A stretch of 48,639 bases of DNA, taken from NCBI GenBank assembly GCA_009602735.1, contig WELA01000646.1, positions 1 to 48,639 on the forward strand. The letters run 5' to 3'. Positions 1,415 through 48,639 of this stretch are shown here, piece by piece. The DNA is from Mesotaenium endlicherianum (lineage: Eukaryota). Made by a program: the position numbers and the translations under genes. The stretch's first letter is position 1. Every line of letters starts with the position of its first letter. A model generated the notes under the pieces. The model did no database searches. It was not told the DNA's origin and was given only the letters and a program-made list of their open reading frames with translations.

Positions 1415-1695
1415 TGTCGTGCCTAACGTGGCACGTGCGTGGCTTCTCAGCACGTGTGCCTTCGACTTGGTTGACGTGTCGGTGCGTCGCTGCACGTGGG
1501 GATCGACCTGATTGATCGTCCCTCGCACGTGTGTTGGTGACAGACTGGTTGGGGTTTGACCCATTCTTGGTCTTCCTGCACTTGCATCATGCGGTGAGGC
1601 ATCCCACACTCAGTGCTTCCCATGTTCAACCCGTTCGTCATTCAACACTTAGCAAAAAATTTCAAGAAGATAGCTTATCTTCAGTTTCCCTTACA
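1415..1695 (-). repeat. Family A terminal repeat segment X, outer copy
   Basis: Direct repeat of 2927-3218 (over 90% by eye, one ~12-nt indel). On the minus strand it starts TGTAAGGG and ends GGCACGACA. Similarity stops sharply at 1415. Confidence 0.9.
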
Positions 1696-2924
1696 AGGAC
1701 AGGAGCGTCTTACTTCCACACAGGCTTTCGCCCGAGTTGAGGGTTTACAGAATGAATAACTTTATAGTTTGTAGAAATCACGTCTAAGCAGCTTAACAGG
1801 CAATGCCTAGTTCAAAGAAAATCGCCCTTTAAGGCTTTTGCTTAACTTCCACAAGTCACAGCTTACAAAACTCTGAATTGCACATCTATGCTGGCCTGGT
1901 TTGAGTTCTTCGCTCAACACCGCGCCTTAACAGCTCTTCACGGCTTGGCTGAGCTCACTCAATGCTTCACTGAGGGCTCTACTTGTTAATACTACTCTTG
2001 CTTATCAGCAATTCGACAATTGAGACTTCTGAGAACTTGGAAACTAACACAGCACTCACCATTTTAAGTGACCCTCGCACGCTTGCGGCGTTTGACCCAA
2101 ATCTGTGCTAATCTCCTAACAGATTCTATCTTGCAGCTCTCTACTTTCTACCAGCGAGATCCTGTCTTGGGAACTCCTGAGGTCTAACCTTTCTATGATA
2201 CCCTTAGGAAGAAATCTTCCAGCGTCGGTAGAAGCGTGGCGCCCCCGCTCTTCTATGCCCTTGGGAACTCCTCTTCTTTGCGCTCCTTCTGCTTCTTCAG
2301 CTTCCTTTGACAACAATGCGAGCAAGAATGAGGCAGCTTCAGGCAAGACTCGTGCCTTTCACAGGCACCACACACTGTCCTCTCTCGAGAATGCCAGTGC
2401 TTAGTTACAGCGTTTAGCATGCATGCCGTCCTTACCCAACAGTTCTCACACAGCTTAGAAGTTGTCATTCAGCATGCATGCATGCATTGGGATTGTTGCG
2501 CGTGACCGCTTAGCCTTTCAGCTGACAATCACGCCTATGCGGCTGGCTGGCACCGTTTAGGGTGAACGCTCAATCCGTGACTAGTCATCTGAGGGTCTGG
2601 CCGAGGCGGCACACAACACCCTTTGCAACATCCCTGCTGTACTTGGCTTGGGTAGCCGATTGATCAGTACCTTTCTTGGTACTCGCTGGGCTGGCTCATT
2701 GCTGGTTCCATGCCCCTAGCCTTTCGGCTGACTACTTTGTCGTAATCCCTATCCAGTCCTGGATGTGGGTTTGATGTGTCGTGACCACTTTGACAGTGGT
2801 AACGACTTGAACATGACCGCTGACTCGGTCCTTTGGTCGGTGAGTCAATGTTGACTTCCCGTACCTGGGCGGCCATGACTTGCGCTGCGCGTGCGGCACC
2901 GTCAAGTGGATAGCAGTCGCGACA
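1696..2924 (-). repeat. Family A terminal repeat segment Y
   Basis: Begins TGTCGCGAC on the minus strand. 2664-2924 is homologous to 45838-46100, the 5' end of family A copy 2. Confidence 0.75.
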
Positions 2925-2926
2925 GC

Positions 2927-3218
2927 TGTCGTGCCTAACAGCGTCAAAAACCTGGCACGTGCGTGGCTTCTCAGCACGTGTGCCCTCGACTTGGTTGACG
3001 TGTCAGTGCATCGCTGCACGTGGGGATCGACCGGGTTGATCGTCCCTTGCACGTGTGTCGATGACAGACTGGTTAGGGTTCGACCCATTCCTGGTCTTCC
3101 TGCACTTGCATCATGCGGTGAGGCATCCCATACTCGGTGCTTCCCATGTTCAACCAGTTCCTCATTCAACACTTAGCAGAAATTTCGAGAAGATAGCTTA
3201 TCTTCAGTTTCCCTTACA
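2927..3218 (-). repeat. Family A terminal repeat segment X, inner copy (PPT-adjacent, U3-like)
   Basis: Starts TGTAAGGG immediately after the polypurine tract. Contains four CACGTG boxes. Confidence 0.9.
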
Positions 3219-3230
3219 CCCCTCCCTTTC
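3219..3230 (-). promoter_or_regulatory. Polypurine tract of family A
   Basis: GAAAGGGAGGGG directly abuts TGTAAGG, about 35 nt after the end of pol. Confidence 0.85.
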
Positions 3231-3264: not shown

Positions 3265-3672
3265 TTATTTTTTGTCCCTGTGGCTGGGGGTTTCGGGAAG
3301 GCAGTCACGACATTCCCACCATCCTGCCATAATCTCTTCTTCACCAATGCAGAAGGTGTGCCAACGGGCACCACACTAATCGCAAGTTACCATTGCTTCT
3401 TGAGCATCCAGCACTTTGCAGCTGGCACAAGGCGTGGCTGGCACCAATTCCTCGGGCATTGTCTTGATCGTAGGATCGATATTTGGCAAATGGCACAACA
3501 AACAGTTCTGCACGTCATCTCTCATGGTCTTACCATCAAAACCTTCCAATTCCAACACACCATTGTTGAACGCATGTTTCACGCGTAAGATCACTTCACC
3601 TGAACTGGTGTCAATGGTGGTCTTAGTCTGGCGCTTGCGGTAGACAAAGTCTCCTTCCTGGATCTGCGTCAT
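3265..3672 (-). pseudogene. Integrase C-terminal extension with PHD finger (one in-frame TAG)
   Basis: Reading through the stop at 3376-3378 gives CASCKVLDAQEAMVTCD*CGARWHTFCIGEEEIMAGWWECRDC, a C4-H-C3 PHD signature with WxCxxC. Confidence 0.85.
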
Positions 3673-3693: not shown

Positions 3694-5253
3694 TCACGTC
3701 TTGGCGTAACGCTGCGTGTCTCTTTTCTGTGCAATTTTCAGATTGTCCAGGGCAGCAGGCATTATGTGCTCAAATAACACCTTACGGCGCAACATGACCT
3801 TTAGCAGTTCATCAGGGTTGTCCAGGTCTTTCACCTGCTCAATCTCCTGCTTGATGCTGCTGGGCACAATTGGACTTCTTCCAAACAAAATTTGATAAGG
3901 CGAGTAATTTGCCAAAGCAGCTTGCTTGCTAAATCTATAACCCATAAGCAGCCATGGCAAGGCCAGATCCCAATCACGCTTATCATGCTTAAGGCAAAAT
4001 TTGCGCAAAGCAGACTTAATGGTTTGCACCATCCGTTCTGCCAGACCATTTGCTTGTGAGTGGTCTCTAGACGTAGTGCGATGGTCAATGAAGCATTTGT
4101 CCAGGAGTTTTTGAAAAGATCCTTGGAACTCAGACCCTTGGTCTGTCAGCACTTCTGCTGGGGCTCCATGACGTACAATCACACCATTGAGGAGCGCTTC
4201 CGCGGTCCCCAAGCTTTCCTTAGCATTTAGAGGCACCACCTCTATCCACTTAGAGAAATGCTCAATCACGACCATAATGTACTTGTTACCTCGCTTGGAC
4301 AGCGGTAGCTCACCTGCGAGATCGCAGCTCCACCGATATCCTAGGCCCGTAATTGGCAGAGGTTGTAGGTGCGGGTGTTGCTGCGTAAAACCAGCCTTGA
4401 CGCGATCGCAGCTTCTACAGGCCTTGATCACATCCTCACAGTGCTGCTTCATGCCCCTCCACCAGTAAGACAGCTCCAGAAGACTGTATGTCTTCTTAAC
4501 ACCATAGTGTCCAGTATTCTCATGCATTTCCTGCACCAGAGCTTGTCTTTTGTTGGGTTCTGGCACTAACTTATCCTGACCAGTTTCTTCAATCTTGAAG
4601 AGGTTATTGCATTTCCAGCAAAACTTTTTAGCCCGATGGCCTACCTGGTCCTTTTTTGTTGTCGACAATCCTTCTATATGGGTCCCCGTCTTCAACCAAT
4701 GCATAGTGGCTTGATCTTTCCAGATCTCTGGACTGAACAAGGGTAGGGGCTCAGCTTCTCCTGATGCTACCATTCTAGCCATTTCGGCCAAGCAGGCGGC
4801 CAATTCTGTGGGGCTGCTCGGGTCTTCGTCTTCTCGAGCCCCTGTTCTGTCGTCTGCAGATGGGTCCGGGTTCCTGCTGAGTCCATTAGCGTCGTTGTTG
4901 AGTATACCTGCTCGGTGTATCACCGTCATCTGGTACTCCTGGAGCTTGAGAGCCCAACGAGCGAGTTTACCAGTGAGGTCTCCATTCTTCATCAACCAGA
5001 GTAACGGCGAATGATCTGTGATCAGCGTGAAGGGCCTCCCCCATAGATATTCTCTAAAATGTGCAACAGCCCAGACCACTGCCAGTAGCTCTCCTTCGTA
5101 GGACGAGTAGTTGCTCTCTGCTTGGTTGTTAAAGCACAAGACATAGGCAATGACGTACTCCTCTCTAGGACTTTCGGCCTGAGTGAGTACTGTGCCAATT
5201 CCCACACGACTCCAGTCGGTGTGTAGATTGAACGGCTTGGAGTAGTCAGGTGT
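3694..5253 (-). pseudogene. pol: Family A RNase H and DDE integrase (frameshifted)
   Basis: RNase H motifs LHTDWS, NYSSYEGELLAVVWAV, ITDHSPL, LARWALKLQEY. Integrase HHCC (HENTGH...CRSC) and catalytic CDLAG, TDQGSEF, LAERMV. Confidence 0.95.
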
Positions 5254-6261
5254 TCACAAGACTGGGGCTGTTACCAGCCGCTCCTTGAGCTCATTCATGG
5301 CCTTCTCCTGGGCTTCTGTCCACACAAAAGGTACGTCATTTTTGAGGAGTTCTGTTAAGGGTTTAGCAATTTTGCTATAATCCTTCACAAACTTACAATA
5401 GTATCCGCTTAGCCCTAACAGAGCTTTCAGCTTAGACACATTTGTTGGTGCAGGTATCTTGTAAATGGTTTTAGTCTTTACAGCCTGAGGGGACATAGCA
5501 TTATTCCCAATCTCATGTCCTAGGTAAGGCACGTGTGCCTCAAAGAATCTGCACTTTCCAGGGTGCAGCCTCATCTGGAATTTCTCCAGGCGCTGGAACA
5601 CTTGCTCCAAGTGCTCGAGGTGCTCCTCTATGGACTTGCTGAACACCACTACGTCATCTATGTATGGTTTTGCAAAATCCAGCCCCTCCAGCACTTTATC
5701 CATAGTCCTCTGAAAGATGGCTGGGGCATTTTTCAGCCCAAACGGCATTACCGTCCATTGCCAAAGTTCCCTTTGGGCCCATAAAGCGGTCTTACCTTGA
5801 TCTTCTGTTTTCACAGGGTTCTGGTTGAACCCTTGGCGTAGGTCGATGATGCTGAACACCTTCCCGGTGGTAGCAATCGCAAAGATCCGCTCTAGTGTAG
5901 GCATCACATAGCTGTCTGGCTCCGTGTGAAGATTCAGTCGTCTGTAGTCTTCACACATACAAGTGGCTGTATAATTGCCATCCTTGTCCTTCTTGGCAAC
6001 TACTACCATGGGAGCTCCATGTATTGAGGTTGATTTCTCAATCATGCCGAGCTTATGCAGCTCCTAGCAAGTTTTCTCCACATAGTCCCATTCGGTCTGA
6101 CTGAGCTTATGCGGCCCAAGTCTGACTGGGTTATCAGTAGTTAGTGTGATCTTACACATACTGGCAGTGGATCTACCAATCTCCTCCTTAGTAAAAGCAA
6201 ACACCTTGCAAAGCTTCTTCATCAGCCTCCCTACTTTTGCTCTCTGTTGGGCTGAGACCAT
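5254..6261 (-). pseudogene. pol: Family A reverse transcriptase
   Basis: DYRRLN, IIDLRQGFNQ, VMPFGLKNAPAIFQR, YIDDVVVFS, YLGH. In-frame stop near 6064. Confidence 0.95.
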
Positions 6262-8479
6262 GTTTCCAATGGTAAAAACCTCAGCTGCTGGCTGCTTTTC
6301 CCCAACACAGGCATCCAGTAGTTGCTACTTCTTGGGTCTAGGTGGAGGCTTTTTGCCCTCATCCTGGCCTTCAGGCTTTTCTGCCTGATTGTTAGACGGT
6401 GGAGTGGCAGGCTTTGCAGCTTGGTCCTCCGCTGTCTCAAGCTTGGTGGCCTGCTTCTCAGGCCTTTTACCTTTTCCAATAGAACGTCACCTCTCTTGTG
6501 GCGTGGAGTAGGTCAGACGCCTCCGGATGGGCTGCTTGAAGAATCTTTCTTCATCGGCTGCAGTCCAGCTGGTCCCTGTTCCTCCTTCTTCACGTGGTGG
6601 GGGTGGGTTTGGCCACCCTGCTGGATCTGCTCAAAGGTCGATTGTGCAACCCCACTCGCGCTCAATGGTAGCTATGCGCGCAACGGTTGTGCCAAACTCC
6701 TCCCTGGCTGGTGGCGTAACCGTCCATGCTTGTGTCACAGTCTGCGATCTTTGAGCCGCAGCTAGTTGTGCGTATATAGCATTCTCTGCTGTCAAATGGC
6801 TTATGGTGCTTCTCAGCTCTACCAATTCCCTTTCAGACACTGCAGGTGTCCTAGGAGCTGACCATTCTTTCTCCCACATTTCTGTAGATGAGGGGCGCAC
6901 CATGGAAATGTGAATTCCCAATGCCATGGCTTTGCGAATTAAGCCATCCTCTCCCTCTCTCTGCAAAACTTCCAAGATAGGTCGCGGAGGAGAAACCGTG
7001 GTTTTTTTCAAAACTTCTTCTCTCTAAGCTGTTCCCCTGTACTTAAGATAACGCATCAGCATCCGCCTGAAAGGTGCATTCCATTCCCAGGCCACCTTTC
7101 TTGGTCTGCTTGCGCAACCGTGAGGATTTCCTTGTGTTGGTTCCACCTTAGCAGTGCAGGCAGCCACTTCCTGCGGTTGTTGTAGCTAATGTGGGGTATC
7201 TTCTCGTGCTGGAAAACTGGCGGTTGGAGTGCTGGATGTGGGCGACCTTAGATCGTTGTAAAGATCGGCCGGGCTGGGTCCTTCCATCATCAAGTGGTCG
7301 TTCACTCAATCATCCGTTCTGAGCTCTTGTAACTCCAACAGGTCCAGCTCTGGGGTAGGAAAACGTAGAATTTCTTCCCGAATCTCCTCTTCATTGGTGA
7401 CTGACGGGCAGGTCAAACCCTAGAAGGTCTGGCATCTCTGCCTCATCTTCAACTGATTTCCCCGCTCTCGTTGGTGGCGGTTCTCCTTCATTATCTGTGT
7501 TGAGCTTTGCCAAGTTGACGATGGCTGATTGCAGAGCGCTTGCCGCCTTAGCCACTTCCCTTTCCTTGTGTTGTCAAGCGTCTCCACCCAGCAGCTGCTC
7601 CATGATTTGCCTTGAAATGGATTCAGCTGTTTGACTGGCTGAACCCTGCTGTTGCCCCTTAGCTTGCGGCTCTGGGCTCATCAAGGCAGGTGTTGTAGAC
7701 AATTTCTTGTCCAACTCTTCCTGGCGTTCTTCAAATATCACTTCGAGACATATGGTCTTTGCAGACCCTCCAGAATCTCCTGAGTTCTGGCTACTCTCTT
7801 CAGCCCTTTCACCAAGATTGCACTGGCGTTCTTGCATTACTACTTGGTTTAAGCAGTATCCAGTATTTTCGGCCATAGGCCAGGAGTCTTCGTCTCAGAT
7901 TCTTCTGACATGTATTGTAACGACGCTTGCTCTGGTGAAGACGATAGACACTTTTGGTTAGATTCCCAGCTACTTGAGCATTCCTGCCAATAGTCTCCGC
8001 GCCCAGCTGCTCTTGGGGTGAGGTGGGTATCATACCTTGACCTGGTCTTTTTTGGAGTCTCTTCACGTCTTGATGTCGTGGCTACAAGATGTGAGCTCCC
8101 AAAAATCTAGCTGTGAATGGCGTTTCTCGCAGATGATGGGGTGCCATGCGTATCGTCTTCTACTCTTGGTAGCGGCACTGCCTGCTCACGCGCCTGATCC
8201 CTCATGGGTGTATCCTCTCTTTTTAGAGGTGCTTGTAATTCCTTGGTCCCGTTATCAATCCGGGCCAACAGATCCTGACATCTCATCAGTTTTGCCACTC
8301 TTTCTCCCCTGAATGCTCTGTCTACAGCGGCTTCCACTGCGTCTCTTTGCACTCAGTATTCTTCTTGTTGCTGATGTGCCGTTTTGATAGCCCTCTGATC
8401 AGATGTTGGCACCACATTGAACCCAATTGTCACTGGTTTTGGTCTTGGCATAGGCTTGTCAGTGAAGGTCAACTGTTGC

Positions 8480-8922
8480 CATGTCATGATTGTTTCCACC
8501 AACCAAGTCATAGAGTGCTGCCCGATCATGTTGCCGAAAATCTTTGCGGCTTCATAAGACCCTACAGCACCGGCTATATGCTGAGCTATGGTGTCAGGTA
8601 TTCCAAGGCATTTGCCCTTTTCCACCGCGGTAGGCTCTCTCCACACGGCGTCTCTTTCATATATGTCTTTGACCATTCTTGGTCCACCTCCTATGAAGGC
8701 TCGGCATCCTGGATATGCTGTGAAGGTTGGTAGTACCACTATTGGCTGGCCTGGTTCGTTGATGACACACTGTGGATAGGAATCCCTCCTGGTCACTGGT
8801 CTGGTATGCACCGCCAATTCCATTTCCACTGTCAATGCCGTTGGTGATTGCCGTGTAATGTCCTCCATTTCTCTCAGAACCTCCATAGACATGCCGTTGG
8901 TCCAAAATATCCTGGCCCTATG
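8480..8922 (-). pseudogene. C5-cytosine DNA methyltransferase, C-terminal half (motifs VIII-X), inside family A pol
   Basis: HRARIFWTN (motif VIII; DNMT3 has HRARYFWGN), REPTAVEKGKCLGIP (motif IX-like), AAKIFGNMI (motif X-like). Cut at 8922 by an LTR. Confidence 0.75.
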
Positions 8923-15930: not shown

Positions 15931-15950
15931 ACAAAGAAGACTGTAATAAT

Positions 15951-15963
15951 TGCTCCGATACCA
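15951..15963 (-). promoter_or_regulatory. Primer binding site, tRNA-iMet type
   Basis: TGGTATCGGAGCA, 1 nt after the LTR end. Confidence 0.9.
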
Positions 15964-15964
15964 C

Positions 15965-23663: not shown

Positions 23664-23766
23664 GCAACAGTGCTGAAACACGGGGGGGTTAGTTCTGTTA
23701 GTTTCCTTACCAGCTAATTTTGCAATTCAATGTTGTCGAGGCGACAACAATTTAAGTTCGAGGGAT

Positions 23767-27468: not shown

Positions 27469-28161
27469 CTGCACGCGCGCACGCACGCACGCACGTTGCC
27501 ATTGCTGTCATTGTTACGAAACGGCTTGGAGGTACAAGCATTGCACATAGACGTGTATGTGTCTATGCATACATGCACGCACATATCCACCCCTCTGCGC
27601 CTGCGCAGGTGTGAACCTCCGAGGTCCAACCCGGGAGGCGTTGGCCGGCTGACACGGAATCACGCTCGCTCAAAAGGCGTTCCTGAAAAGACGGAGTGTG
27701 GCATAGGATGAGAGCCCAGCGGCAGTCAGCCGGTAGAGCAGCAGTAGCGGCAGCAGCAGCTGTGCCTCTGCAGCCCCACACAGGGTTTACTTGTTCAGGT
27801 AGGGGGAAGTGGCACACCCTTCCTGAGCTGGCCTCAGTGGGATGGGATGGGATGGCAACCTCAGATGCAACAGCAGTGCTTATGCTAAATAAAGCGCACG
27901 CACGTGGATGAGTGTATGTATATCTGTGTGTGTGTATGTATGTGTATGTGTATGTGTGTGTGCGTGCGCGTATTGGTCAGTCGAGGATAAAGAAGGCCAG
28001 CGCTAGACATGATGCGGGTGCACTGGCCTGAGATGTAGCAACAGCAAATATCATGAAATAATAAGGTTGAGTGGGAGGGGAGGAGGGGGGAAGGGGGGGC
28101 GTTAGCGGGAGGGCAGCATGCAGGACACAGCTGACAGGCGAGGGGGGGCGTTGCCGCTTAC

Positions 28162-33605: not shown

Positions 33606-34350
33606 TGAAAGGGGCAAAGTGCCCTAGTGGAAGCATAGTGACTCACGAGGAAAGGAACTAGTTGCCATCATACTAAAGAGTGCAGCGGCATATCATTAAC
33701 GAAGCTTAGGAAAAATACTCAACATTTAGAGTAGCAAAAAACTGCTCACAATTTGGTGTAGGATGAAAGGCCTTGTCATTACAAACCCGTAGAAACTTAC
33801 AGAAGTGAAAACTGATAAGAAACATAGAAGTTATGCCTATTTATAATTTTTTGCCTAAGTGCTCCTCCCTACGAGGAAGCTACGGATTTTCCTAAGTGTT
33901 CGTCAAATCGTCCCTTCCAGAATATTTGTGAGTAAGCCAGATCAGTCTAATCTGACGTGTCGGGCTGAATTGACGTCCACATACATGCATCGACATTACT
34001 AGAATATTCTATCTCAGACGCGCTAGGCTAAACCGAAACTTCTAGGTAAATCGACCTAGTCGGCACTCCGCGTCAGCCGAACTTACGTGAAGGTTCGAGT
34101 TCATTCTAACGGGCCAGATCGCTCGACGCTGTCGGTCAATCCGACGGTCGCGCTCACCGCGAATTAAGGACAGTCGTCAACCGACCTCAAAACTAATTAA
34201 ACTTCGGAAATCCATAACTCTCTCAATACTTGACCAAATTCGATGAACTTTATATCAAAATGACCACAAAAATGCACTGCACACTACTATACAATCAAAA
34301 CATACTTTCATGAAACTCAAAAATGCACTTTATAAACCGATGACCTTACA
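33606..34350 (-). repeat. Family D 3' LTR
   Basis: TGAAAGG...CCTTACA on the plus strand, PPT adjacent. Confidence 0.95.
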
Positions 34351-37300
34351 TCATCCCCCTCCTCAAGATGCGACGTCCTCGACGCATTCTGCAGAGAACG
34401 TCTTAACTTACTCTTACAATCAGTCAAGTTGGCCTCTGGCTCCCAAGTGTTGTCGTCCGCATGGTAGCCTTTCCACTTGACCATATACTCTTGGGTAATT
34501 CGTTGACCTCGCTTGACTCGTCGATCGCTGACAATCGCCTCCACTTCATATTCCAATACATCATCGATCTTGACCGGTGGTGGCAGTGTAGGTAGTTGTC
34601 CTAGATGTCCTTCATTCGGGTCAACGTATGGCCGTAGACAACTGACATGGAACACGTCATGGATACGCCAGCCTGAAGGAAGTTCCAACTTGTAGGCCAC
34701 TGGATTCACCTGCTTGAGCACCACAAAGGGACCTGTAAACCGTGCCCGCAGTTTCCTCTTGCCTGTGAAAGGTAGGTTCTCTGTGGACAAGAGTACTTTG
34801 TCGCCCACATGGAATGTCACTTCCCTCCTGTGCTTGTTAGCATGCTTGACCTGCTCTTCCTGTGCCTTCCGAATACACGTCTTCGCCATATCCCAAGTCT
34901 TGGCCATCTGCTCCATAAAAGCTTGTGTAGTAGGAACCTGAGTCTCCTTGGCCTTCTCCAACAAGATGTTCCCTGGATGATATACTTCTCGCCCATAAAC
35001 CATAGCGAATGGTGACTGCTTGGTGGATCCCTGCATGCTGTTGTTGTAGGCAAACTCCAATCCTGGCAGCTTCTTGTCCCACTCTGAAGGGTCCTCCATA
35101 GTGAAACTCCTGAGCACCTCTTGCAGAGTTCTGTTGAGCCACTCACTCTGCCCATCTGTCTGAGGGTGATAGGAAGTGCTCATACTCAGCTTGATCCCCA
35201 TCAAAGTAAACAATGACCGCTAAAAGTTGCTAGTGAACCTTGGATCCCGATCTGAAACGATCACCTTCGGCAACCCATGTAGCTTGAAAATATAATCAAA
35301 GAATAGCCGTGCCACATCCGCTGCCGTAGAAGTCTCCTTCATGGGAATGAAGTGAGCCATCTTGCTGAGTCTGTCAGACACAACCCATACTGCATCGTGC
35401 CCTTGACCACTGACTGGTAACGATGTGATGAAGTCCATAGCAATCTGCTCCCTGGGATACTCTGGAATAGGCAGGGGCTGCAATGTACCTCCCTTCTTTT
35501 GATTTGGTGTCTTGTTTCTCTGGCACGCATCGCAACTCCTGATCCACTCCTCGATGTCTTTGTCCATATTTCTCCAGTAGTATTCCCGCTTCAGCACGCT
35601 TGCCGTCTTCTCGTTTCCAAAGTGTCCAGCATATAAGCAGTCATGATGCTCCGCAAGTAGTAAGTCTCGTAGCTCCTTGATGTCAGGTACCACCACTCTC
35701 TTGGAATCACCATAATACCATATGCCGTCTTTCTTCTGCATACTCGAGTTGGACTCAGCTGCTCCACCATCAGCAAACTCTGGGTCCTCCTCATAACCTC
35801 TCTGAAGCTTCTTCTTGAAGTCCATATTCTCCTTAATGACTGAAACAGCTGCAAGGTCACACCTCCTGGATAGAGCGTCTGCAGGGTTGATCTTCCCAGG
35901 TAAGTACTCAATCTTGTGGTCGAACTGTTGCAGAAACTCCATCCACCTTGCTTGTCTTGGTGTCAACGTTGGCTGCGTCATAAACTTCTCCAAGCTCTTG
36001 TGGTCGGTCTTGATGAACACCTTCCGGCCGTCCACATAACATCGCCAAATCCTCAAAGCCTGGATAATAGCCAACATCTCCCGCTCGTGTGCTGCATAGT
36101 TCTGCTCAGCAGGACTCAACTTCCTGCTCTCATATGCCACAGGCTGCAATCCTTTGCCCTGGTCCTGGAGAAGAATGGCTCCCACTGCAAAGTTTGATGC
36201 GTCCGTGATGATGGTGAAAGGAAGCTCTGGACTGGCAATTGCCAACACAGGTGCCTGTGTCAACAGCTCCTTAATCTTCTCAAAGGCTTGCTGCTCCTTG
36301 TCACCCCATAGCCACTTCTCCTGCTTCTTCAACATGTCCGTGAGCGGTGCACACACCTTGGCAAATCCTTCAATGAAACGTCGGTAATAATTCGCCATGC
36401 CGAGGAAACTCCTGAGTTGATGAATATCAGCAGGTACCGGCCAATCTCTGACTGCTTGCACCTTCTTCTGCTCCACCTTGACTCCTTCAGCTCCCACTAT
36501 GTGTCCAAGAAACTCGACCTCCTTGAGACAGAAGTCGCACTTGCTCATCTTCCCATACAGCTTTTGATCTCTCAAGACCTCCAACACCTTCCTCAGATGC
36601 TCCACATGCTCTTCCAAGGTCTTCGAATAGATCAGGATGTCGTCCAAAAATACCACCACAAACTGGTCCAAGTAGGGTCTGAAGATACTATTCATGAGTC
36701 CCATGAATGTAGCAGGTGCATTAGTCAATCCAAAAGGCATGACTGTGAACTCGAACAAACCATAGCGAGTTCTGAAAGCAGTCTTCTGAACGTCTCCTTC
36801 CGCAATCCGTACCTGGTGATAGCCACTCCTCAAATCGATCTTCGAGAAATACTTCGCCCCGACAAGCCTGTCAATCAACTCGTCCACTCGTGGAAGTGGG
36901 TACCTGTTCTTGATGGTGACCTTGTTGAGTGCCCGGTAGTCGACACACATCCTCATAGTCCCATCCTTCTTCTTCACAAATAAGACTGGCGCTGCAAATG
37001 GAGACTCGCTGGGTCGGATGAATCCCTTCTCCAATAACTCTGTCAGCTGCTTCTTCAACTCATCCAACTCCGCAAACGATTGTCGATAGGCGGGTCTCAC
37101 TGGTGGCTTGCTCCCTGGTTCCAACTCAATCTTGTGCTCCATAGCTCTCTGTGGAGGTAATCCTGCAGGTAGCTCCTCAGGAAATACGCACTTGAACTCC
37201 TCCAACAGCGCCTTAATTTGGGCAGGCATCTCAGCAGGCTTCTTCTCTTGAGCAGTTGGGCTCTGCTCCTTCTGAGCAAGGGGATCAGACACCACTACTT

Positions 37301-37958
37301 GCTCCTCCGGCGATGTACATTCGCCCAGGCTGTTAGGATTCACGCTTGCTCCATCTGATGACCTGGCCAGGGCCACCGAAACAAGGTACATCTCCTTCAC
37401 CTGATTCGCCCTGCATAGCTTCTTAACTTGCAGGCTCGACAGAAGACAGTTACTTGTGGTCGTATCTACCTCCACCTGTTTCGCTGTCTCCATTCGACCA
37501 TCACGCCCTTGGACTTTCACTTGTCCTGTGCTCCAGTGCACTTGAGGGTTGGCTTTCCTCAGCCATGGTCGGCCCAATATCACCTCATGGTGACCCAACT
37601 CTGCCTGCTCCATAACTTCCTTACTCCGGTGCCCCGCTACTTCCACGTGAATAGCTTCCGTAGGTGCACCACACTTGAGTCTCTGCCCATTCGCCAAAAT
37701 TGCCTCCTTAGGCTCATAATGCTTCTGCACAGGGACTCGCCACTCTTTCACCAGCTTCTTGTGCACAAAGTTTGCACTTGCGCCACTGTCGACCATACAC
37801 TTCGCATTATTGCCGTCGACCACTCCTTCCACGATGATAGGCTTGTCAACGTCTCGTCCTTTGCTTCTCGGCAGGCTCCTGGGGATAACCTCCTTGTGAG
37901 TTCTCGTCTTCACGCCAGTAGACACACCAGAACGACTTACTGGCGTCCTCCTTTTTCC
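34317..37958 (-). pseudogene. pol: Family D pol (PR-RT-RH-INT-chromodomain) with a single TAG at 35220-35222
   Basis: [28 protein letters not shown]...GH...CDAC, SDRDPRF, DGQSE; chromodomain EYEVEAIV...YMVKWKGYHADDNTWEP. The ORF runs through the PPT into the LTR. Confidence 0.95.
37900..37958 (-). promoter_or_regulatory. Predicted -1 ribosomal frameshift signal
   Basis: G_GAA_AAA heptamer, 5-nt spacer and a perfect 9-bp stem ACGCCAGTA/TACTGGCGT. pol is in the -1 frame. Confidence 0.75.
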
Positions 37959-38980
37959 TGTTGTTGAGGTTGTTTCGCCTTCACATGACAGTCTCGAGCC
38001 AGATGTCCAAGCTTGCCGCAATTATAGCAGGGTCCTCTCGGCTTCAAATTCTGCTGCCTGCGCTGGTACTGCACAAGTCCCAACTCCATGGGTACTGGAC
38101 CTTGAACATTCGTGCTTGGCGCTTGAGATCCAAAGTGTCGATATCCTCCAAAGTTGTGGCTGCCCCACTGCCTCTGACTATACTCCACAGCGTCGACCCT
38201 TGTTGCCAATGCCATCATTTCTCCAAGACTGGTAGGGTCCTTGAGCGCCACTTCCTTGGCCACAGTTGGCTTGAGTCCCCTCTTGAACTTGTCCATCATC
38301 TCTGACTCGTGCATGGATGGACATTGAAGCACCAGCTCGTTGAAGCGCGATACATACTCCTGAACGCTTCCTCGCTGACGAAGGCGCACCAATAGATCTC
38401 GAGCGGTANTTCGAGCGGTAGCCTCGGGCGCAATAGGTTGAAGTTGCCTCTTCAAGCCTTCAAAGAGCTGATTAACAGTAGCAGGAACTCCAAACAACTG
38501 CTCTTCTCGTTCATACCAAGCTCCAGCACTCTTCTGCAGCAAAGTTATGACAAAGGCGACTTGCCTGTCGGGCGTGAGCGCAGAATACTCCATAAACTTC
38601 TTCACTCCAAAAATCCATTGATGAACAGGCGGCGATCCACGCTCTCCAGTATAAACTTCAGGCTTAGGTGCACGCACTCCTGATGCGGGTGGAATAACTG
38701 GTTGCACCACTGGGTTAACATGAATCGGTGGTACAACAGGTGCAGGTGCCGAACTCGTCGAAGCGGCGTTCCCCATAACAACTTGCACCATTCTCTCCAC
38801 CTCCGCGCGCATATTTTGTTGAAACTGGGTGTAGACTTCTCCTCCAATTGCATTTGCCATTTGTCTTAGCATCGCCTGCATCTCTTGTTGCTCTCTGGTC
38901 ATTGTTGGTGCTGCCTGCTGCCCCGCGCGCTCAACATGCTCGACATGTTCGCCTCCTCCAGCTGCCGACTGCGACTCCAT
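37937..38980 (-). CDS. gag: Family D Gag
   Basis: [50 protein letters not shown]. Confidence 0.95.
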
Positions 38981-39000
38981 AATATAACATGCAAACTAGT

Positions 39001-39015
39001 CCTGCTCCGATACCA
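39001..39015 (-). promoter_or_regulatory. Primer binding site, tRNA-iMet type
   Basis: TGGTATCGGAGCAGG, 2 nt after the 5' LTR. Confidence 0.9.
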
Positions 39016-39017
39016 GA

Positions 39018-39761
39018 TGAAAGGGGCAAAGTGCCCTAGTGGAAGCGTAGTGACTCACGAGGAAAGGAACTAGTTGCCATCATACTAGAGAGTGCAGCGG
39101 CATATCATTAACAAAGCTTAGGAAAAATACTCAACATTGTGAGTAGCAAGAAACTGCTCACAATTGATGTAGGATGAAAGGCCTTGTCATTACAAACCCG
39201 TAGGAATTTACAGAAGTGAAAACTGATAAGAAACAAAAAAGTTATGCCTATTTATAATTTTCTGCCTAAGTGCTCCTGCCTAGGAGGAAGCTACGGATTT
39301 TCCTAAGTGTTCGTCAAATCGTCCCTTCCAGAATATTCGTGAGTAAGCCAGATCAGTCTAATCTGACGTGTCGGGCCGAATTGACGTCCACATACATGCA
39401 TCGACATTACTAGAATATTCTATCTCAGACGCGCTAGGCTAAACCGAAACTTCTAGGTAAATCGACCTAGTCGGCACTCCGCGTCAGCCGAACTTACGTG
39501 AAGGTTCGAGTTCATTCTAACGGGCCAGATCGCTCGACGCTGTCGGTCAATCCGACGGTCGCGCTCACCGCGAATTAAGGACAGTCGTCAACCGACCTCA
39601 AAATTAATTAAACTTCGGAAATCCATAACTCTCTCAATACTTGACCAAATTCGATGAACTTTATATTAAAATGACCACAAAAATGAACTCTATACTACTA
39701 TACAATCAAAACATACTTTCATGAAACTCAAAAATGCACTTTATAAACCTATGACCTTACA
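39018..39761 (-). repeat. Family D 5' LTR
   Basis: Direct repeat of 33606-34350. Confidence 0.95.
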
Positions 39762-39973
39762 TCATCCCCCTCCTCAAGATGCGACGTCCTCGACGCATTC
39801 TGCAGATAACGTCTCAACTTACTCTTACAATGAGTCAAGTTGGCCTCTGGCTCCCAAGTGTTGTCGTCCGCATGGTAGCCTTTCCACTTGACCAGATACT
39901 CTTGGGCAAATCGTTGACCTCGCTTGACTCGTCGATCATTGTAAGGTCATAGGTTTACAATGATCAACGAGTC
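39762..39973 (-). mobile_element. 3' tail (chromodomain end and PPT) of a second family D unit sharing the LTR, ending in a fold-back junction
   Basis: 39762-39937 repeats 34351-34526. It is followed by an inverted LTR tip and an inverted copy of the preceding bases. Confidence 0.85.
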
Positions 39974-42257: not shown

Positions 42258-43667
42258 CCTTTCTCCTTGTGCTCTCTGCTGAGCTCAGACCATTTCCCCA
42301 ATGGCAAAAGTCTCAGTTTCAGGTTGCGTCTCCCCAACAAAGACATCCAGTAGTTGCTACTCCTTAGGTGCAGGTGGGGGCTTCCCGCCCTCATCCTGGC
42401 CCTCAGGCTTTTCTGCCTGATTCTGGCTCTCAGGCTTTGCAGCTTGATTCTTAGGAGGTGGGGTAACAGGCTTTGCAGCTTGCTCCTCCGTTGCCATAAG
42501 TTTGGCAGCCTGTTTCTTAGGCTTTTTACCTTTCTCAATGACGCGTCGCCTCTCCTGCGGTGAGGGGTATGTCAGGCGCCTCCCGATGGGCAGCCTCAGG
42601 ATCATTTCCTCGTCGACTGCAGTCCAACCGGTCCCGGTTCCTCCTTCTTCACGTGGCCGAGGTTGGTTTGCCATTGGAAAACCTGCGGGATCTGTCCTAG
42701 GGCTGATCGCCCAGCCCCATTCTTGCTTAATAATAGCCATGCGGGCGACGGTCGTGCCATACTCCTCCCTTGCGGGTGGTGTGACCATCCATGCCTGCGC
42801 CAATGTTTGCGACCTTTGAGGTGCAGCTAGTTGTGCAAGAAAGGCATCATCTGCTGCGGTCAAGCGGCTGATGGTGTTTCTCAGATCCATCAGTTCCCAT
42901 TCTGGGATTGCAGGTATCATGGGGGCAGGCTCCTCCGACCTCTGTATCCTAAGGTCTGATAGTTGCAACAAGGGCGTGTTCATGCCAGGCGGCACACTAA
43001 TGCCCAATGCCATTGCCCTGCGAACCAAACCATCCTCTCCCTCTCTCTGCACAATATCCCGCAGAGGCGGAGGAGGTGGGGCTGTGGTTCCTCGCGGAAC
43101 GCCCTCTCTCTGAGCCTTCCCCTTATGCTTGAAATATCGCTTTAGCATCCTCCTAAAAGATGCGTTACCCTCACGGGCCACCTTCCTTGGTCTGCTTGCG
43201 CGACTTTCGGGCTTTCCTTGTGCTGTCTCCACTTTAGCAGTGCAGGCTGTCGCCTCCTGCCGTTGCGGCGGTTGTGCGGTTGACTTGGGTTCTGCCACTG
43301 GAAGCCTGGCAGAAGGAGAACGGATGTTGGCGACCTTAATTCTTCATAAAGTTCTGCCGGGCTTGGCCTCATCAGGTGGTCAGCTACCCAGTCGTCTGTC
43401 CTCAGCTCCTGTAAGTCAAGCAGATCCACCTCTGGCGTGGGAAAATGTAGGATTTCTTCCCCAATGTCGTCTTCATTGTTGAGTGATGGTGACTCCAACT
43501 CCGAGAGGCCTTGCATTTCTGCATCCTCTTCCTCCTCCGGCTTCTCTGTTCCAGGAGGCGGTAATTCTTCGTCCCCTCCTGTGTTGAGCCTCGCCATGTT
43601 GATGATGGCTGACTATAGAGCGAGAGCTGCTTTCGCCACTTTCTCTTCCTTGAGTCGAGGGGCGTCT

Positions 43668-44037
43668 GCTTCCGCAGCATACTGATGATCTTCACCATCC
43701 TTCCCCAGTGTTGTGCTCGCAGGTCATTGAATCCCCTCCTGTTCCCAGCTTGTGAGAAAGGTTGACAAGGGAATCCCGCAAAAATCCAGTCAATCCTGTG
43801 ATCATACAGGTCCTCAGACTTCACATCAAGAATGTTTCCTCCAGCAAGACGCACCACACTGGTAGGCACCAATGCCTTGAAGTGGTACATTTGCCGCATC
43901 TCACTCATGACCTCCTCAAATGCTGTAAAAACACTCTCATCATTGTCCACATACAGCACTTTGGATACCTGGATACCTCGCTGAATCAGTGCGATGGTTC
44001 CAGTACCAAGTCCGGCGAACAATTCCAGCACTACTAC
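43668..44037 (-). pseudogene. C5-cytosine DNA methyltransferase, N-terminal half (motifs I-V), inside family A pol
   Basis: VLELFAGLGTG (motif I, SAM binding), LYVDND (II), GNILDV (III), IDWIFAGFPCQPFSQAGNRRGFNDLR (IV with catalytic PC, and V). Ends at a deletion junction near 43667. Confidence 0.92.
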
Positions 44038-44432
44038 TCCTCTCCTGCGAAAAGGATCTTCCATCCTCACAATGCCTTGCGGCAATGGTTCTACTCCAGG
44101 CATCAAATTGGCAGCAGTCTTAACTGGATAAGGAACTGGCAGCAGCTCTTGCGGGCCACGGTCCCTGTTACTCACGGCTTCTAGTTGCTCCATAATCCAA
44201 GGCTGCCAAACCAAGGGAGTCGGCATGTTGATGCTGGTGTAGATCTTCTCTTCGCGTTGCATGATGAGGTCATAATGGTCTGGATACTGGTTATTCACAC
44301 AGCAGTCTAGCAGTCCGTAGTTTGCTTCTCCCGAGCAAACCATTTTTACAGGAATTTCTCCTGTCGGCTGCCGATCTGTCGACTGGTAAGTCACCCTCTG
44401 CTTCCGCAGGTCGATGACCATACCCAGGGGAA

Positions 44433-45837
44433 TCAGAGCTTCTGTCCCCAATANGAAATCAGAGCTTTTGTCCCCAATAGAACATCATAGTTTTCTGCCT
44501 CTGTCACTGTACACTCAATTAGCAGTGACGCTTCCTCAGGTTTCCCCAAGTTTACTGTGATTTCCACAGGCTTGCGGGTGATTCCACAAGACTTTGAAAT
44601 CTGCCCAGATGCAGTCCTCAACTGGAAAAGGACTTTCTTTCAGGTCCCTTGCCGTCAATCCCAGAGCTTTCACAGCTCGCTTTTCCAAGATTATTGGCTG
44701 TGCGCCAGTGTCGAATAGGATGTTGGGAGTGGCCCAGTTGTTAAACGTCAAAACTCTATCCTTGTTCTGCACTCTCACAATGCTGAAATCAGTAGGCAGC
44801 GAAGCGCTGTTCGCGCCTTCCTCAGCTAGGTCCAGCTGCTGTCTAGCTTCCTCAATCGTGAAAAGGTATGTAAGACGCAGATCAGCGAGTGAAAGACAAG
44901 GAATGTGCTGAATCCGGTGTTCCACCAGAGCTTTTAGCTTTTCCAGCGAAAAACTAAATGTCTTGCGTGGCCCAGGCTTGGCTTGTCGTAGCTGCGCAAT
45001 CTCGTTCTCATCGAGAGTGATCCGAAAGGTCTGAGGAAGCTTCCCAGCATTCCTTGGAACCAGGCGGTCATGATCTGCGCGCTCCGCAGCCGTTGCAGCC
45101 ACGGCCTTCTCAGGCGTCAGCTTCTCGCCTTTGCAGACGGTCTTTTCGGCCACATCTGCATCGTAATAGACATTAGGCACATTTAGTCTTGCAAATTGAG
45201 CTTTCAACTCTGCAATCTCTGCACTCATAGCATCATACTTCTGATTACCCTTCCGGTTACCAGAATTATCTTTCTCCTTTTTCTTACCCTTATCTGCCTC
45301 TTTTGTGGCAGCATTAGCCCATAATGGTTTCAGATTTGGGTTCTTGGACCAACACTTATCTTCTGAGTGTCCCTTTTTACTGCAATGTGCGCATACCTGC
45401 GCCTTGCTAGCAGACAATTGCTTAGCATCCGGGTACGCACAATCTCTCTTCTGATGTCCTGATTTCCCGCAGTTCCAACAACCCTCTGCTGTCTCAGCAG
45501 TGTTGGCGTGCTTAGCAAACCTATTGAAAGACCCGCTCTTTTTCTTAAACTGAAAGTAAGAGCTATTGGCCTTGGGCTGAAAGGATTCCTCCCTTCTCTC
45601 AGGAGCCATAAGCGTCCTGGAAGCCTCCTTGTACCAGACTTTACCTTCCTCGACATTGCGTGCTATTTCAGCAGCCTCGTCGATGTTCCAGTCGGTTCCG
45701 CGTTTCGCAGATAGGTGCGGCCTGACCTCCCGATCTGTATCTTTACCCAGACACAATAAGAATTTGTCAGCCACAATCCTAGGCTCATAGATTCCTGCCT
45801 TCTTGGCAAGGTCTACCAATCTGGATTTGACGTCCAC
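44433..45837 (-). pseudogene. gag: Family A gag C-terminal part (two CCHC knuckles) fused in frame to aspartic protease
   Basis: CWNCGKSGHQKRDC, CAHCSKKGHSEDKC, ILFDTGAQ, YDVLLGT. Frameshift near 44620. The gag start is deleted. Confidence 0.9.
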
Positions 45838-46100
45838 TCAGTACCTCACCTGGTACTTGCTGGGCGGCTCATTGCTGATCCCCAGCTCCTAGCCTCGCGG
45901 CTGTCTTGTAAAAACCTCCCCCATCCTTGGGTGTGGGTCATACTGACATTGATTCCTTGCCAGTGGTCTTGACGCCGCCATAACCGCTGACTGCGATGTA
46001 ATCAGTCAAGTGGTCGGTGAGTCAACGTTGACTTTCAGCACTAGGTGGCCGTAGCTTGCGCTGCGCGTGCGACACCGTCAAACGGATAATAGTCGCGACA

Positions 46101-47720
46101 ATGAATCGTCTTACCAAATAGGCGATTAATTCTTAATAAAGATCTTTATATCAGCAAGTAATTTTTATGGATTTTTCGTTAACTGATTAAACGGCAAAGG
46201 ACAACACACTAGCAGTGAACAATACTCGTAAACCAAATGCGAGTAAACTAGCATCAATAATGCATTCAGTAAACTCATACATAAGCAAGGTTAGAAGACA
46301 GTGCGTATCAATGGCTTCTCGCCTTGGATTCAGTTCTCTCTCAGTCAGCCGTACAAGAGAGTTGGCCTCGTTTCCGAATGCCGAACTCGAGAGCAATGCC
46401 TAGCATATGTACATGGAATGAGTTTACTGTTCAACGGTCAGTGCGATGGCACCGCCTACCCGGGAGTTAATCACGTTGGTAGGACCTCGGTTAACCAGAT
46501 CCACTGCCATCTCCCATCATCCCGAATCGCCATCCGTCATAGGGATGTCATCTGGCCATTCATCTAGCATACCACACTTAGATGCATATCAAGGCAGTTC
46601 GCTGCTACCGAGTACGGAAGTCAGCTGGCTGTCAAAGAATGTGTCAGCAAGCTGACTTAAGCTGACTTCAGCCTGCTGCATCCGGCTGAGTCATTAAACT
46701 GATACTAAATATAAAGTCCAGCAGACTGACTATTAACTAAAGTTGAGCAGGCTAAACTTAATCTACTATTACATTCAAATGAATATTATATCTACTAATA
46801 TACTGATTCATTACAGGCTAAACTTGATTTACTATTACATTTAAATGAATATTATATCTACTAATATACTGATTCATTACAATCCCTCCAACTGAACTTG
46901 TTGTCGCCTCGACAACATTAAACTGCAAAAGTCTTTGGCCAGGAAACTGAACCTCACCCGCCTCTCCCGGTGACTGCCCCTTCAGCGTTTTGCTTAAAGG
47001 GTTGTTCCTGGGACTTCAGGATCAGGAGACCAAGATCGGGACCTAGATCTGGACAGCCCTCTAGGTCTGTCAGCTGGCCTTCTCAAGAACCCCGTTTGCT
47101 CTAAAGTTGGACCTCGAGGAGAACGAAGGATGGTAGCCTGCTCTTCACCCACTTGGGTGTTGATCCCCACGTAGACAGGCATTCCAGTAGGATGCTGAAA
47201 TACATTGGCTAGAGGTACATGCCCCTGAGCGGAGGGGGAGGCCGGCATACCTCTGGCCCACCCGCGTGTCTCTCTTCTGGCACCCCTCTCCTCTGGGGAT
47301 TTCTGCCTGTGTCTGCTGCCCAGTACAGTCAGATCAGCTTCTTCCCCTGCTTGGGCAGGTGGGCTGGGGGAGCAAGTGCGGGCCAGTTGCCTCCAAGACG
47401 GGGATCACGTTCCAAATACCTGATCGTGGTTCTTTAGGAAGTGCCCCTGCCTGCCCCTGGGTCTCCGGAGTACCAGCTGCTGATGCTTCTCCTCTGCCTT
47501 GTTCTTCTTCCTCATCCTCCTCATCCTCCTCCTTGGAGAGAGTAGGAGTCTCGTCCACTAAGTCGTCCCGCTCCTTAGTAGACATGGAGTAGTCTACCGA
47601 CCTCCCTTTCTTAGGGCGCGCTGGGGGTTGCTTGGCCTTTAGCCTGCTGATATCTATCCGGCCTGCATTCTTTGCCCATTTGACAAAGGCATGCTTTCCC
47701 TTAGAGAAGTAGTCTCTTCC
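46101..47720 (-). mobile_element. Family B copy 3: 3' LTR (46101-46881, missing its terminal 4 nt, with the 66-bp duplication), PPT and 3' part of the extra ORF
   Basis: Homologous to 8927-10473. Confidence 0.95.
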
Positions 47721-48639
47721 TGAAATGAATCGACTTACCAAATAGGCGATTAACAATTAATAAAGATCTTTATATCAGCAAGTAATCTTTATGGTATTTC
47801 CGTTCACTCGTTAAACGGCAAAGGACAATACACTAGCAGGGATTACTACTCGTCAGTCAAATGAGAGTAAACTAGCATCAATAATGCAAATCAATAAACT
47901 CATACATAAGCAAGGTTAGAAGACAGTGCGTATCAATGGCTTCTCGCCTTGGATTCAGATCTCTCTCAGTAAGCTGTACAAGAGAGTTGGCCTCGTTTCC
48001 GAATGCCGAACTCGAGAGCAATGCCTAGCATATGTACATGGAATGAGTTTACTGTTCAACGGTCAGTGCGATGGCACCGCCTACCCGGGAGTTAACCACG
48101 TTGGTAGGACCTCGGTTAACCAAATCCACCGCCATCTCCCATCATCCCGAATAGCCATCCATCATAGGGATGTCATCTGGCTATTCATCTAGCATATCGC
48201 ACTTAGATGCATATCAAGGCAGTTCGCTGCTACCGAGTACGGAAGTCAGCTTGCTGTCAAAGAATGTGTCAGCAAGCTGACTTATATGGACTTTCAGCCT
48301 GCTGCTTTCCACTGAGTCAGCAAACTGATAATTATGTAAAGTCCAGCAGACTGACTATTAAGTAAAGTTCAGCAAACTGACTATTAACTAAAGTCTAGCA
48401 AACTGACTAATAACTAAAGGTCAGCAGGCTGAACTTAATTAACTATTATATTTAAATGAATATTATATCTACTAATATACTGATTCATTACAATCCCTCC
48501 AACTTAACTTGTTGTCGCCTCGACAACATTAAACTGCAAAAGCTTTAAATAAAGAAACTGACCCTGACCAGCCTCCCTTACTGACTGCCTCTTCAGCGTG
48601 TCACCTCAAGGGGTTGTTCCTGGGGCTTCAGGGTCAGGA
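47721..48639 (-). mobile_element. Family B copy 4: 3' LTR (47721-48492), PPT and 3' internal region running off the window, nested in copy 3
   Basis: Intact TGAAATG end interrupts the extra ORF of copy 3. Short internal tandem units at about 48350-48427. Confidence 0.95.

What the first reader, a model, noticed from the sequence alone, without database searches (positions are those of the whole stretch)
43668..44037. C5 cytosine methyltransferase embedded between protease and RT of a retrotransposon polyprotein
Seen: intact motifs I-V (ELFAGLG, GFPCQPFSQAG) in the frame continuing from the protease. Known: DNMT capture by retrotransposons has been reported in charophyte algae and dinoflagellates, so the concept is not new, but it is rare. 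Inference: the enzyme is packaged with pol and could methylate the element's own cDNA or its insertion site.
Basis: partly seen in the sequence, partly recalled or inferred. Interest (0 to 1): 0.8.

Follow-up and report, generated by a model that had tools for sequence, protein, structure and literature searches.

The report
Methyltransferase retrotransposon with leaky stop
This is a broken copy of an abundant jumping gene of a known kind that carries its own DNMT3-like DNA methyltransferase; this copy has lost half of the enzyme, but two copies share a stop signal that likely lets only some ribosomes read on, which would make the methyltransferase far more plentiful than the reverse transcriptase.

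Summary
Window 44049-43672 (minus strand) encodes C5-methyltransferase motifs I-V (PF00145, E=2e-14) in the gag-protease frame of a Gypsy element. This copy cannot methylate: a deletion at 43672 removes motifs VI-X. A second copy in the window (8922-8467) holds motifs VIII-X. Both halves match the same relatives, including Klebsormidium nitens GAQ93235.1, and both recur in many contigs of a public DNA run. The clade's profile fits DNMT3A (E~1e-26) far better than M.HhaI (~1e-12). The termini are A-coding-B-A-B, as reported for KnitGypsy-Dnmt3, so the capture is known; this scan also reported such elements in two bryophyte windows. Two features look new. About 710 codons of unknown protein follow the enzyme. 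Both copies (dS 0.4-0.85) then share one in-frame UAG-CAA-CUA, the tobacco-mosaic-virus readthrough motif, 88 codons before RT, while RT evolves at dN/dS 0.08. Likely mechanism: Gag-protease-DNMT is made at capsid levels and RT-integrase-PHD by readthrough; methylation of the element's cDNA is untested. No self-methylation signature or coding-region transcription was seen. The host is unidentified.

The parts
45836..46100 (-). Copy A: 5' terminus, first 265 nt of terminal repeat A (starts TGTCG); the rest of A and the gag start are lost in a deletion at 45835/45836
   Evidence: 70% match to copy B 2924-2664 ends at 45838; loose ends on both sides of 45835/45836 in X1, X6, X7; position 46100 corresponds to 2924, where 97 X1 contigs have unlike flanks
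44539..45837 (-). Copy A: remnant gag with two zinc knuckles and the N-half of the aspartic protease (D-T-G at 44718-44701)
   Evidence: zf-CCHC E=1e-4 (above cut-off); Asp_protease_2 E=0.017 (below cut-off); coordinates
44428..44639 (-). Copy A: protease C-half, broken by one extra base near 44625 and a 26-nt tandem duplication (44428-44479, holds an N)
   Evidence: Three-frame translation; duplication visible; contigs of X1, X6, X7 lack the base, and one X7 contig spans 44327-45459 with 27 gaps
43672..44049 (-). Copy A: N-half of a DNMT3-like C5 methyltransferase, motifs I-V with the catalytic Pro-Cys (the finding)
   Evidence: PF00145 E=2.4e-14; nodes 8-140 of 344, 93.7 bits; 35% identity to K. 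nitens GAQ93235.1 830-952
43672..43673 (-). Copy A: deletion junction that removes motifs VI-X and the first part of the linker (about 1.5 kb, estimated from copy B and GAQ93235.1)
   Evidence: An X7 contig follows 43856-43672 and goes on in other letters; an X7 contig and two X1 contigs enter from the other side at 43673; similarity to copy B resumes at 43655
42360..43671 (-). Copy A: remaining linker, a protein-coding region of unknown family
   Evidence: dN/dS 0.31 and 0.37 against copy B; no Pfam hit, no usable Atlas hit, no hit at E<0.05 among the fetched proteins, AlphaFold pLDDT 50
42351..42359 (-). Copy A: in-frame TAG CAA CTA, predicted readthrough signal
   Evidence: Same stop and context at the aligned place in copy B; motif UAG-CAR-YYA as given in PMC3159437
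41587..42356 (-). Copy A: pre-RT segment and N-part of reverse transcriptase, cut off at 41587
   Evidence: RVT_1 E=1.3e-19; loose ends at 41587; dN/dS 0.08 against copy B
8467..8922 (-). Copy B: C-half of the same kind of DNMT (motif VIII H-R-A-R, target-recognition region, motifs IX-X), cut upstream by an LTR of another family
   Evidence: Nodes 186-335 of 344, 76.7 bits; matches GAQ93235.1 1007-1160, E=5e-13; Atlas first hit a PF00145 cluster, score 0.95, family on 21% of members; no Pfam or PDB hit on its own
6328..8466 (-). Copy B: linker of about 710 codons, decayed (several private stops)
6319..6327 (-). Copy B: in-frame TAG CAA CTA
3697..6324 (-). Copy B: RT, RNase H, integrase
   Evidence: RVT_1 E=4e-29, RT_RNaseH E=7e-34, Integrase_H2C2 E=1e-16, rve E=2e-11
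3301..3429 (-). Copy B: C-terminal PHD finger (one internal stop, read as X)
   Evidence: PF00628 E=4.5e-5, 23.8 bits, just under the cut-off of 24; PHD also on close relatives
1415..3230 (-). Copy B: polypurine tract 3230-3219, repeat B 3218-2927, repeat A 2924-1696, repeat B 1695-1415 (ends CGACA)
   Evidence: B copies 93% alike over 271 nt; boundaries read; the 3' end at 1415 is inferred from the repeat end, no flank test

Best explanation
The finding is the N-half of a DNMT3-like cytosine methyltransferase in a dead, internally deleted copy of a multi-copy Gypsy retrotransposon of the KnitGypsy-Dnmt3 kind, whose complete copies likely make a Gag-protease-DNMT-linker protein that ends at a leaky UAG and would reach RT-RNase H-integrase-PHD by readthrough. 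Shown: the two DNMT halves, the domain order, the deletion, the A-coding-B-A-B termini, many insertion sites, and the shared TAG CAA CTA in two copies. Inferred: that complete copies carry the whole enzyme in one frame with Gag; that a minority of ribosomes read through (about 10% in tobacco mosaic virus, PMC2754532); that the DNMT therefore reaches capsid-level amounts in the particle, is released by the protease and methylates CG in the new cDNA before integration (by analogy to DNMT3A and SymbioDIRS-Dnmt3, PMC5890265); and that the PHD finger helps choose insertion sites. Odds: family assignment about 0.9, readthrough about 0.7, cDNA methylation about 0.5.
For: Both halves hit the same proteins in order: K. 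nitens GAQ93235.1 (zinc knuckle-protease-DNMT) and P0012 (zinc knuckle-protease-DNMT-RT-RNase H-integrase). Clade profile against PDB: the 29 best sequences are DNMT3A/B/C (3e-26 to 8e-21), M.HhaI 1e-12, DRM-type about 1e-11 to 4e-9, DNMT1 0.3. Motif I-IV spacing is 84, within the 83-97 of 30 retroelement-type rows and outside the 62-80 of 63 of 65 other rows. RT tree: both copies fall in a 21-row clade (SH-aLRT 99) that holds 8 of 8 DNMT-bearing RT proteins (57 of 131 hits used). Family level: summed contig depth 13,000-17,000 over the N-half and 6,500-7,800 over the C-half, against about 50 for single pieces; 97 unlike flanks at the 5' end. Stop: 1 of 4 in-frame stops of A and 1 of 7 of B are shared; only that one has CARYYA; 7 of 1358 in-frame codon pairs match the motif. 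RT dN/dS is 0.08 since the copies split, so RT was being made. The conserved pre-RT motif (aromatic-x-x-G) starts 5 codons before the first Met after the stop.
Against: The stop is seen in two copies only. It is not listed as a variable site, but only 40 of 475 and 40 of 804 rows are shown. Its 5' codon is GAG/AAG, not the CAA of tobacco mosaic virus. Six relatives have DNMT and RT in one open frame, as stated for KnitGypsy. Motif VI (E-N-V) was not seen for this family; no record spans a whole enzyme. The N-half alone is ambiguous: best PDB hit M.HhaI, top phmmer hit a solitary bacterial-type enzyme, tree support only 86, 102 versus 86 bits for the two rival profiles. CpG observed/expected 0.42-0.64 against 0.33-0.57 in DNMT-less Gypsy elements. 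KnitGypsy-Dnmt3 showed no activity in yeast, called inconclusive by its authors. RNA: 5 of 6.9 million reads on copy A and none on either DNMT half.
Confidence: 0.68

Rival explanations
1. Ordinary KnitGypsy-type element with one open polyprotein; the shared TAG is an old inactivating mutation inherited by both copies, and the CARYYA context is chance.
For: Only two copies examined. Both carry many other stops. Six relatives have DNMT and RT in one frame. PMC5890265 places the DNMT in the Pol ORF.
Against: The copies differ by dS 0.4-0.85 while RT downstream of the stop kept dN/dS 0.08. No other stop is shared; the motif occurs at 7 of 1358 codon pairs. The private stops of copy A at 43615 and 42287 are listed as variant sites in other contigs, this one is not (partial list).
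Confidence: 0.12
2. The stop is conserved but is bypassed by splicing (as in Ogre elements) or by new initiation at the ATG 20 codons downstream, not by readthrough. The DNMT would still be made at Gag levels.
For: [quoted passage not shown] The Met is present in both copies. In Tca2 a junction stop did not direct readthrough in a reporter (PMC2194720).
Against: Both sides of the stop stay in one frame and look coding (dN/dS 0.31 before, 0.22 after). The conserved pre-RT motif begins upstream of the Met. The six bases after the stop fit the type I readthrough consensus in both copies.
Confidence: 0.15
3. An independent capture of a bacterial-type (M.HhaI/Dcm-like) methyltransferase, unrelated to Gypsy-DNMT3.
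For: The N-half alone hits M.HhaI best in PDB; many of the 150 listed phmmer hits are bacterial-type; it is the deepest, long branch of the retroelement clade with support 86.
Against: The C-half matches only retroelement-type proteins among those fetched and carries the DNMT3A-like H-R-A-R-x-F-W motif. Spacing, RT clade and terminal repeats agree with Gypsy-DNMT3.
Confidence: 0.05

Closest known systems
KnitGypsy-Dnmt3 of Klebsormidium nitens (PMC5890265; parts 1-4 of 7 of the text read, Fig. 4 legend only; main supplementary PDF too large to read)
   Same: Gypsy domains with a non-rearranged DNMT3-like domain; DIRS-like A-coding-B-A-B repeats; both halves match a K. nitens zinc knuckle-protease-DNMT protein (GAQ93235.1; that it is a KnitGypsy copy is my inference); mostly silent copies.
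   Different: Only 29-35% identity in the DNMT. The paper places the DNMT in the Pol ORF with RT; here a shared TAG CAA CTA separates them. The DNMT-RT distance is about 800 codons against 89-191 in six relatives. Copy number looks higher (97 or more flanks; the paper's table lists 33 DNA_methylase genes). The text does not mention a PHD finger (0 occurrences); the figure was not seen.
SymbioDIRS-Dnmt3 and SymbioLINE-Dnmt of Symbiodinium (PMC5890265)
   Same: Retroelement-borne C5 methyltransferase; SymbioDIRS-Dnmt3 methylates CG de novo in yeast and has the same repeat order.
   Different: DIRS uses a tyrosine recombinase and LINEs an endonuclease; this element has a DDE integrase, protease and polypurine tract.
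EpiLTRs of Cymbomonas and Euglena (bioRxiv 10.64898/2026.05.21.726589; passages and section 8 read)
   Same: LTR element with a cytosine methyltransferase plus a chromatin-reader domain.
   Different: Their DNMT is sister to DNMT4 and comes with an adenine methyltransferase and a chromodomain; here DNMT3-like, PHD, no DAM seen.
Type I stop-codon readthrough, UAG-CAR-YYA of tobacco mosaic virus (PMC3159437, PMC2754532; passages read)
   Same: Same stop and six following bases, upstream of a polymerase domain.
   Different: Measured there (about 10%), untested here; 5' codon differs. Candidates in rice Gypsy elements are mentioned in PMC2754532. Use of the motif by SIRE1 and at some gag-pol junctions is recalled, not read (one search failed).
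Ogre elements (PMC6317226; passages and section 13 read)
   Same: Coding region divided after the protease, before RT-RH-INT.
   Different: Ogre has a spacer of about 274 nt that is spliced; here one in-frame stop, with a DNMT and long linker before it.

Membership tests
C5 cytosine methyltransferase (PF00145) | Motifs I-V with catalytic Pro-Cys | tested here: met
C5 cytosine methyltransferase (PF00145) | Motifs VI-X in the same reading frame, this copy | tested here: not met
   Deleted at 43672
C5 cytosine methyltransferase (PF00145) | Motifs VI-X in the family | tested here: inconclusive
   VIII-X present in copy B; VI-VII (nodes 141-185) absent from the window; an X7 contig runs on past motif V but only 30 letters are shown
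C5 cytosine methyltransferase (PF00145) | Methyl transfer to cytosine | not testable with these tools
   Needs an assay
Streptophyte Gypsy-DNMT3 (KnitGypsy-Dnmt3 kind) | Gypsy domain order protease-RT-RNase H-integrase | tested here: met
   Pieced from copies A and B as separate records
Streptophyte Gypsy-DNMT3 (KnitGypsy-Dnmt3 kind) | DNMT3-related domain without DRM rearrangement | tested here: met
   Clade profile ranks DNMT3A/B/C first; motif order I-X collinear with GAQ93235.1. No tree with host DNMT3 or DRM sequences was built
Streptophyte Gypsy-DNMT3 (KnitGypsy-Dnmt3 kind) | A-coding-B-A-B terminal repeats | tested here: met
   B-A-B at the 3' end of copy B, A at the 5' end of copy A, 97 unlike flanks at the start of A. 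Whether a B also follows the 5' A cannot be seen because of the deletion at 45835
Streptophyte Gypsy-DNMT3 (KnitGypsy-Dnmt3 kind) | DNMT in the same ORF as RT and RNase H | tested here: not met
   Same frame in copy B but separated by a stop shared by both copies; hence filed as a variant
Streptophyte Gypsy-DNMT3 (KnitGypsy-Dnmt3 kind) | [quoted passage not shown] | not testable with these tools
   The two copies hold non-overlapping halves; no genome was available
Streptophyte Gypsy-DNMT3 (KnitGypsy-Dnmt3 kind) | Streptophyte host | tested here: inconclusive
   Named relatives are Klebsormidium and Closterium; run organisms are coded; no host gene identified
Type I readthrough site | UAG followed by CAR-YYA, in frame, conserved | tested here: met
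   2 of 2 copies
Type I readthrough site | Measured readthrough | not testable with these tools
   Needs a reporter or proteomics

The most novel reading that the evidence does not exclude
A Gypsy lineage has moved its DNMT3-like enzyme, with a 700-residue protein of unknown family, into the abundant Gag-protease product by putting a virus-type leaky UAG in front of RT. Each particle would then carry methyltransferase at capsid levels and stamp its cDNA, or the target site chosen by the PHD-integrase, before the host sees it. I found no report of recoding in DNMT-bearing retrotransposons (searches).
Probability: 0.45. Interest if true: 0.65.

Novelty: new variant of a known kind. Interest (0 to 1): 0.42.

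Why it matters
Why retrotransposons keep a silencing enzyme is still open; the one Gypsy enzyme tested was inactive in yeast. If the stop is leaky, selection has set the methyltransferase at Gag dose rather than Pol dose. That points to a stoichiometric job inside the particle and gives simple tests: reporter, particle proteomics, methylation of extrachromosomal cDNA. The family also has about a hundred or more insertions in a small, repeatedly sequenced genome, which suits selection and methylome analysis. The DNMT capture itself is not new.

Tried and rejected
No genome is held for the window, so copies could not be listed. Word-index search with the N-half gave 2 weak hits among 327 candidates. 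The metagenome scan gave 1 locus of 75 pattern matches, L001, a chance hit on an unrelated bacterial-looking gene. The C-half has no Pfam or PDB hit alone. Host identification failed: 0 of 400 candidates for a putative exon, 0 Pfam hits in 72 of 109 ORFs submitted. No RNA holder on record was listed. Linker: no family, no Atlas hit, unusable fold, so no fold search was run. RNA structure 3' of the stop: a shared stem is predicted, but with 0 of 31 pairs changed on both sides and z-scores of -0.5 and -2.1; one window was misplaced; not counted as evidence. The stop list used a wrong frame for part of copy A and was redone. The careful N-half tree did not finish; the quick tree is reported (92 of 96 parsed rows, 4 near-duplicates or fragments dropped). 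Both rival profiles were built from hits chosen by similarity to the query. CpG depletion as a sign of self-methylation was rejected. An assembly chimera was rejected: X7 contigs bridge protease to gag and linker to RT, and relatives have the same order.

Full report
1. Observation. Upstream lie two zinc knuckles and a protease D-T-G; downstream lies an RT cut off at 41587. Gag and DNMT are in the same frame. Between them this copy has one extra base near 44625 and a 26-nt duplication; contigs of three public runs lack the base, and one contig spans the region with 27 gaps.

2. This copy is half an enzyme. A 344-node profile built from 13 relatives, without window sequence, covers nodes 8-140 here and stops. 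At 43672/43673 contigs leave the window on both sides: one follows the DNMT and runs on in other letters, others come in from the linker. So motifs VI-X were deleted from this copy, about 1.5 kb by comparison with copy B. A second deletion at 45835/45836 removes most of the 5' repeat and the gag start.

3. The domain is a family trait. A second copy (B, 8922 to about 1415, 76% alike over 2 kb) begins at motif VIII, where another LTR cut it, and covers nodes 186-335. Nodes 141-185, with motif VI, are in neither copy. In run X1 the summed contig depth is 13,000-17,000 over the N-half and 6,500-7,800 over the C-half, against about 50 for single pieces; the tool warns that this is no copy number. 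At the start of repeat A, 97 contigs have unlike flanks (agreement 0.36), which indicates many insertions. Copy B ends in polypurine tract, B, A, B; copy A starts with A. This is the DIRS-like order given in the Fig. 4 legend for KnitGypsy-Dnmt3 (PMC5890265).

4. Which methyltransferase. phmmer found 461 proteins at E<=0.001; the best 150 mix bacterial-type enzymes with collinear matches. Of 20 proteins looked up by name, five clusters carry a species: one K. nitens and four Closterium. GAQ93235.1 has zinc knuckle-protease-DNMT, and P0012 has the whole order through integrase. Both halves match these in sequence order. The clade profile ranks DNMT3A/B/C (3e-26 to 8e-21) above M.HhaI (1e-12), DRM-type enzymes and DNMT1. 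Against this, the N-half alone is closest to M.HhaI in PDB and joins the clade with support of only 86. The RTs of both copies fall in a clade (99) with 8 of 8 DNMT-bearing RT proteins; the DNMT-less rows there have at most 204 residues before RT (57 of 131 hits used).

5. What differs. DNMT and RT are about 800 codons apart in copy B, against 89-191 in six relatives. The linker looks coding (dN/dS 0.31-0.37) but has no family. Both copies have TAG CAA CTA at the same aligned place, 88 codons before the RT query start (42359 and 6327). It is the only shared stop among 4 in A and 7 in B, and the only one with that context; 7 of 1358 in-frame codon pairs fit the motif. UAG-CAR-YYA is the type I readthrough consensus (PMC3159437), with about 10% efficiency in tobacco mosaic virus (PMC2754532). 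RT kept dN/dS 0.08 while the copies diverged, so it was expressed past the stop. The conserved pre-RT motif starts before the first downstream Met, which argues against new initiation. Splicing, as in Ogre (PMC6317226), is not excluded. Tca2 shows that a junction stop can fail in a reporter (PMC2194720). Copy B ends in a PHD finger scoring just under the Pfam cut-off.

6. Mechanism. Shown: anatomy, deletion, repeats, many insertions, shared stop. Inferred: complete copies make Gag-protease-DNMT-linker in bulk and a minor readthrough product with RT-RNase H-integrase-PHD. The protease would free the DNMT inside the particle, where it would methylate CG in the cDNA, as proposed for SymbioDIRS-Dnmt3. 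Nothing here shows activity. CpG depletion is no stronger than in DNMT-less neighbours. RNA reads are nearly absent: 5 of 6.9 million on copy A, 235 of 12 million on the copy B stretch, mostly on terminal repeats and flanks, none on the DNMT halves (6% and 12% of each run read; same species label only).

7. Novelty. DNMT3 in Gypsy elements is published (PMC5890265; restated in PMC12344493 and the 2026 preprint), and the scan noted it in two bryophyte windows (unchecked). Searches listed no paper on readthrough in such elements; most subscription journals and the main supplement of PMC5890265 could not be seen and may bear on this. Reader-domain fusions to transposons are common (bioRxiv 10.1101/2021.11.30.470311, passages). 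Verdict: a dead copy of a new variant of a known kind; interest 0.42, carried by the predicted leaky stop.

Noticed in passing
proteins P0053, P0064, P0102: The same DNMT type sits after RNase H (before integrase in P0053 and P0102) instead of before RT, so the domain has moved within the clade. P0064 and P0102 are long branches in the RT tree.
   Followed up: partly
protein P0047 (cluster of 12, members up to 4799 aa): PHD finger, PCIF1_WW domain (E=5e-18; recalled as adenine-methyltransferase-like) and a Gypsy-type DNMT in one protein, with no RT seen; possibly a dual-methyltransferase mobile element.
   Followed up: no
proteins P0074, P0018, P0010; P0178 cluster: Some relatives end 155-477 residues after the DNMT without RT, and several P0178-cluster members are exactly 1033 aa and start 89 residues before RT; other families may also break the frame at this point.
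   Followed up: partly
window 33606-39937: Young chromovirus-type Gypsy element with LTRs 96.7% alike, gag, pol and a chromodomain (E=6e-17), few stops.
   Followed up: no
window 8923-16748, 17013-24533, 46100-48639: Nested copies of another Gypsy family (LTR about 780 nt) with an extra ORF of unknown family after integrase (10087-11544; 22332-23445), without a Pfam hit above cut-off for the piece tested.
   Followed up: no
window 46100-46101: Copy A's 5' end sits about 4 nt inside the end of that family's LTR, so copy A likely inserted into the LTR.
   Followed up: partly
window 26904-27659 (-): Hydrophobic exon-like segment that recalls membrane adenylyl cyclases (from memory); no hit.
   Followed up: partly
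window 16300-17009: Two inverted 270-nt pieces of that LTR, 89% complementary and 168 nt apart.
   Followed up: no
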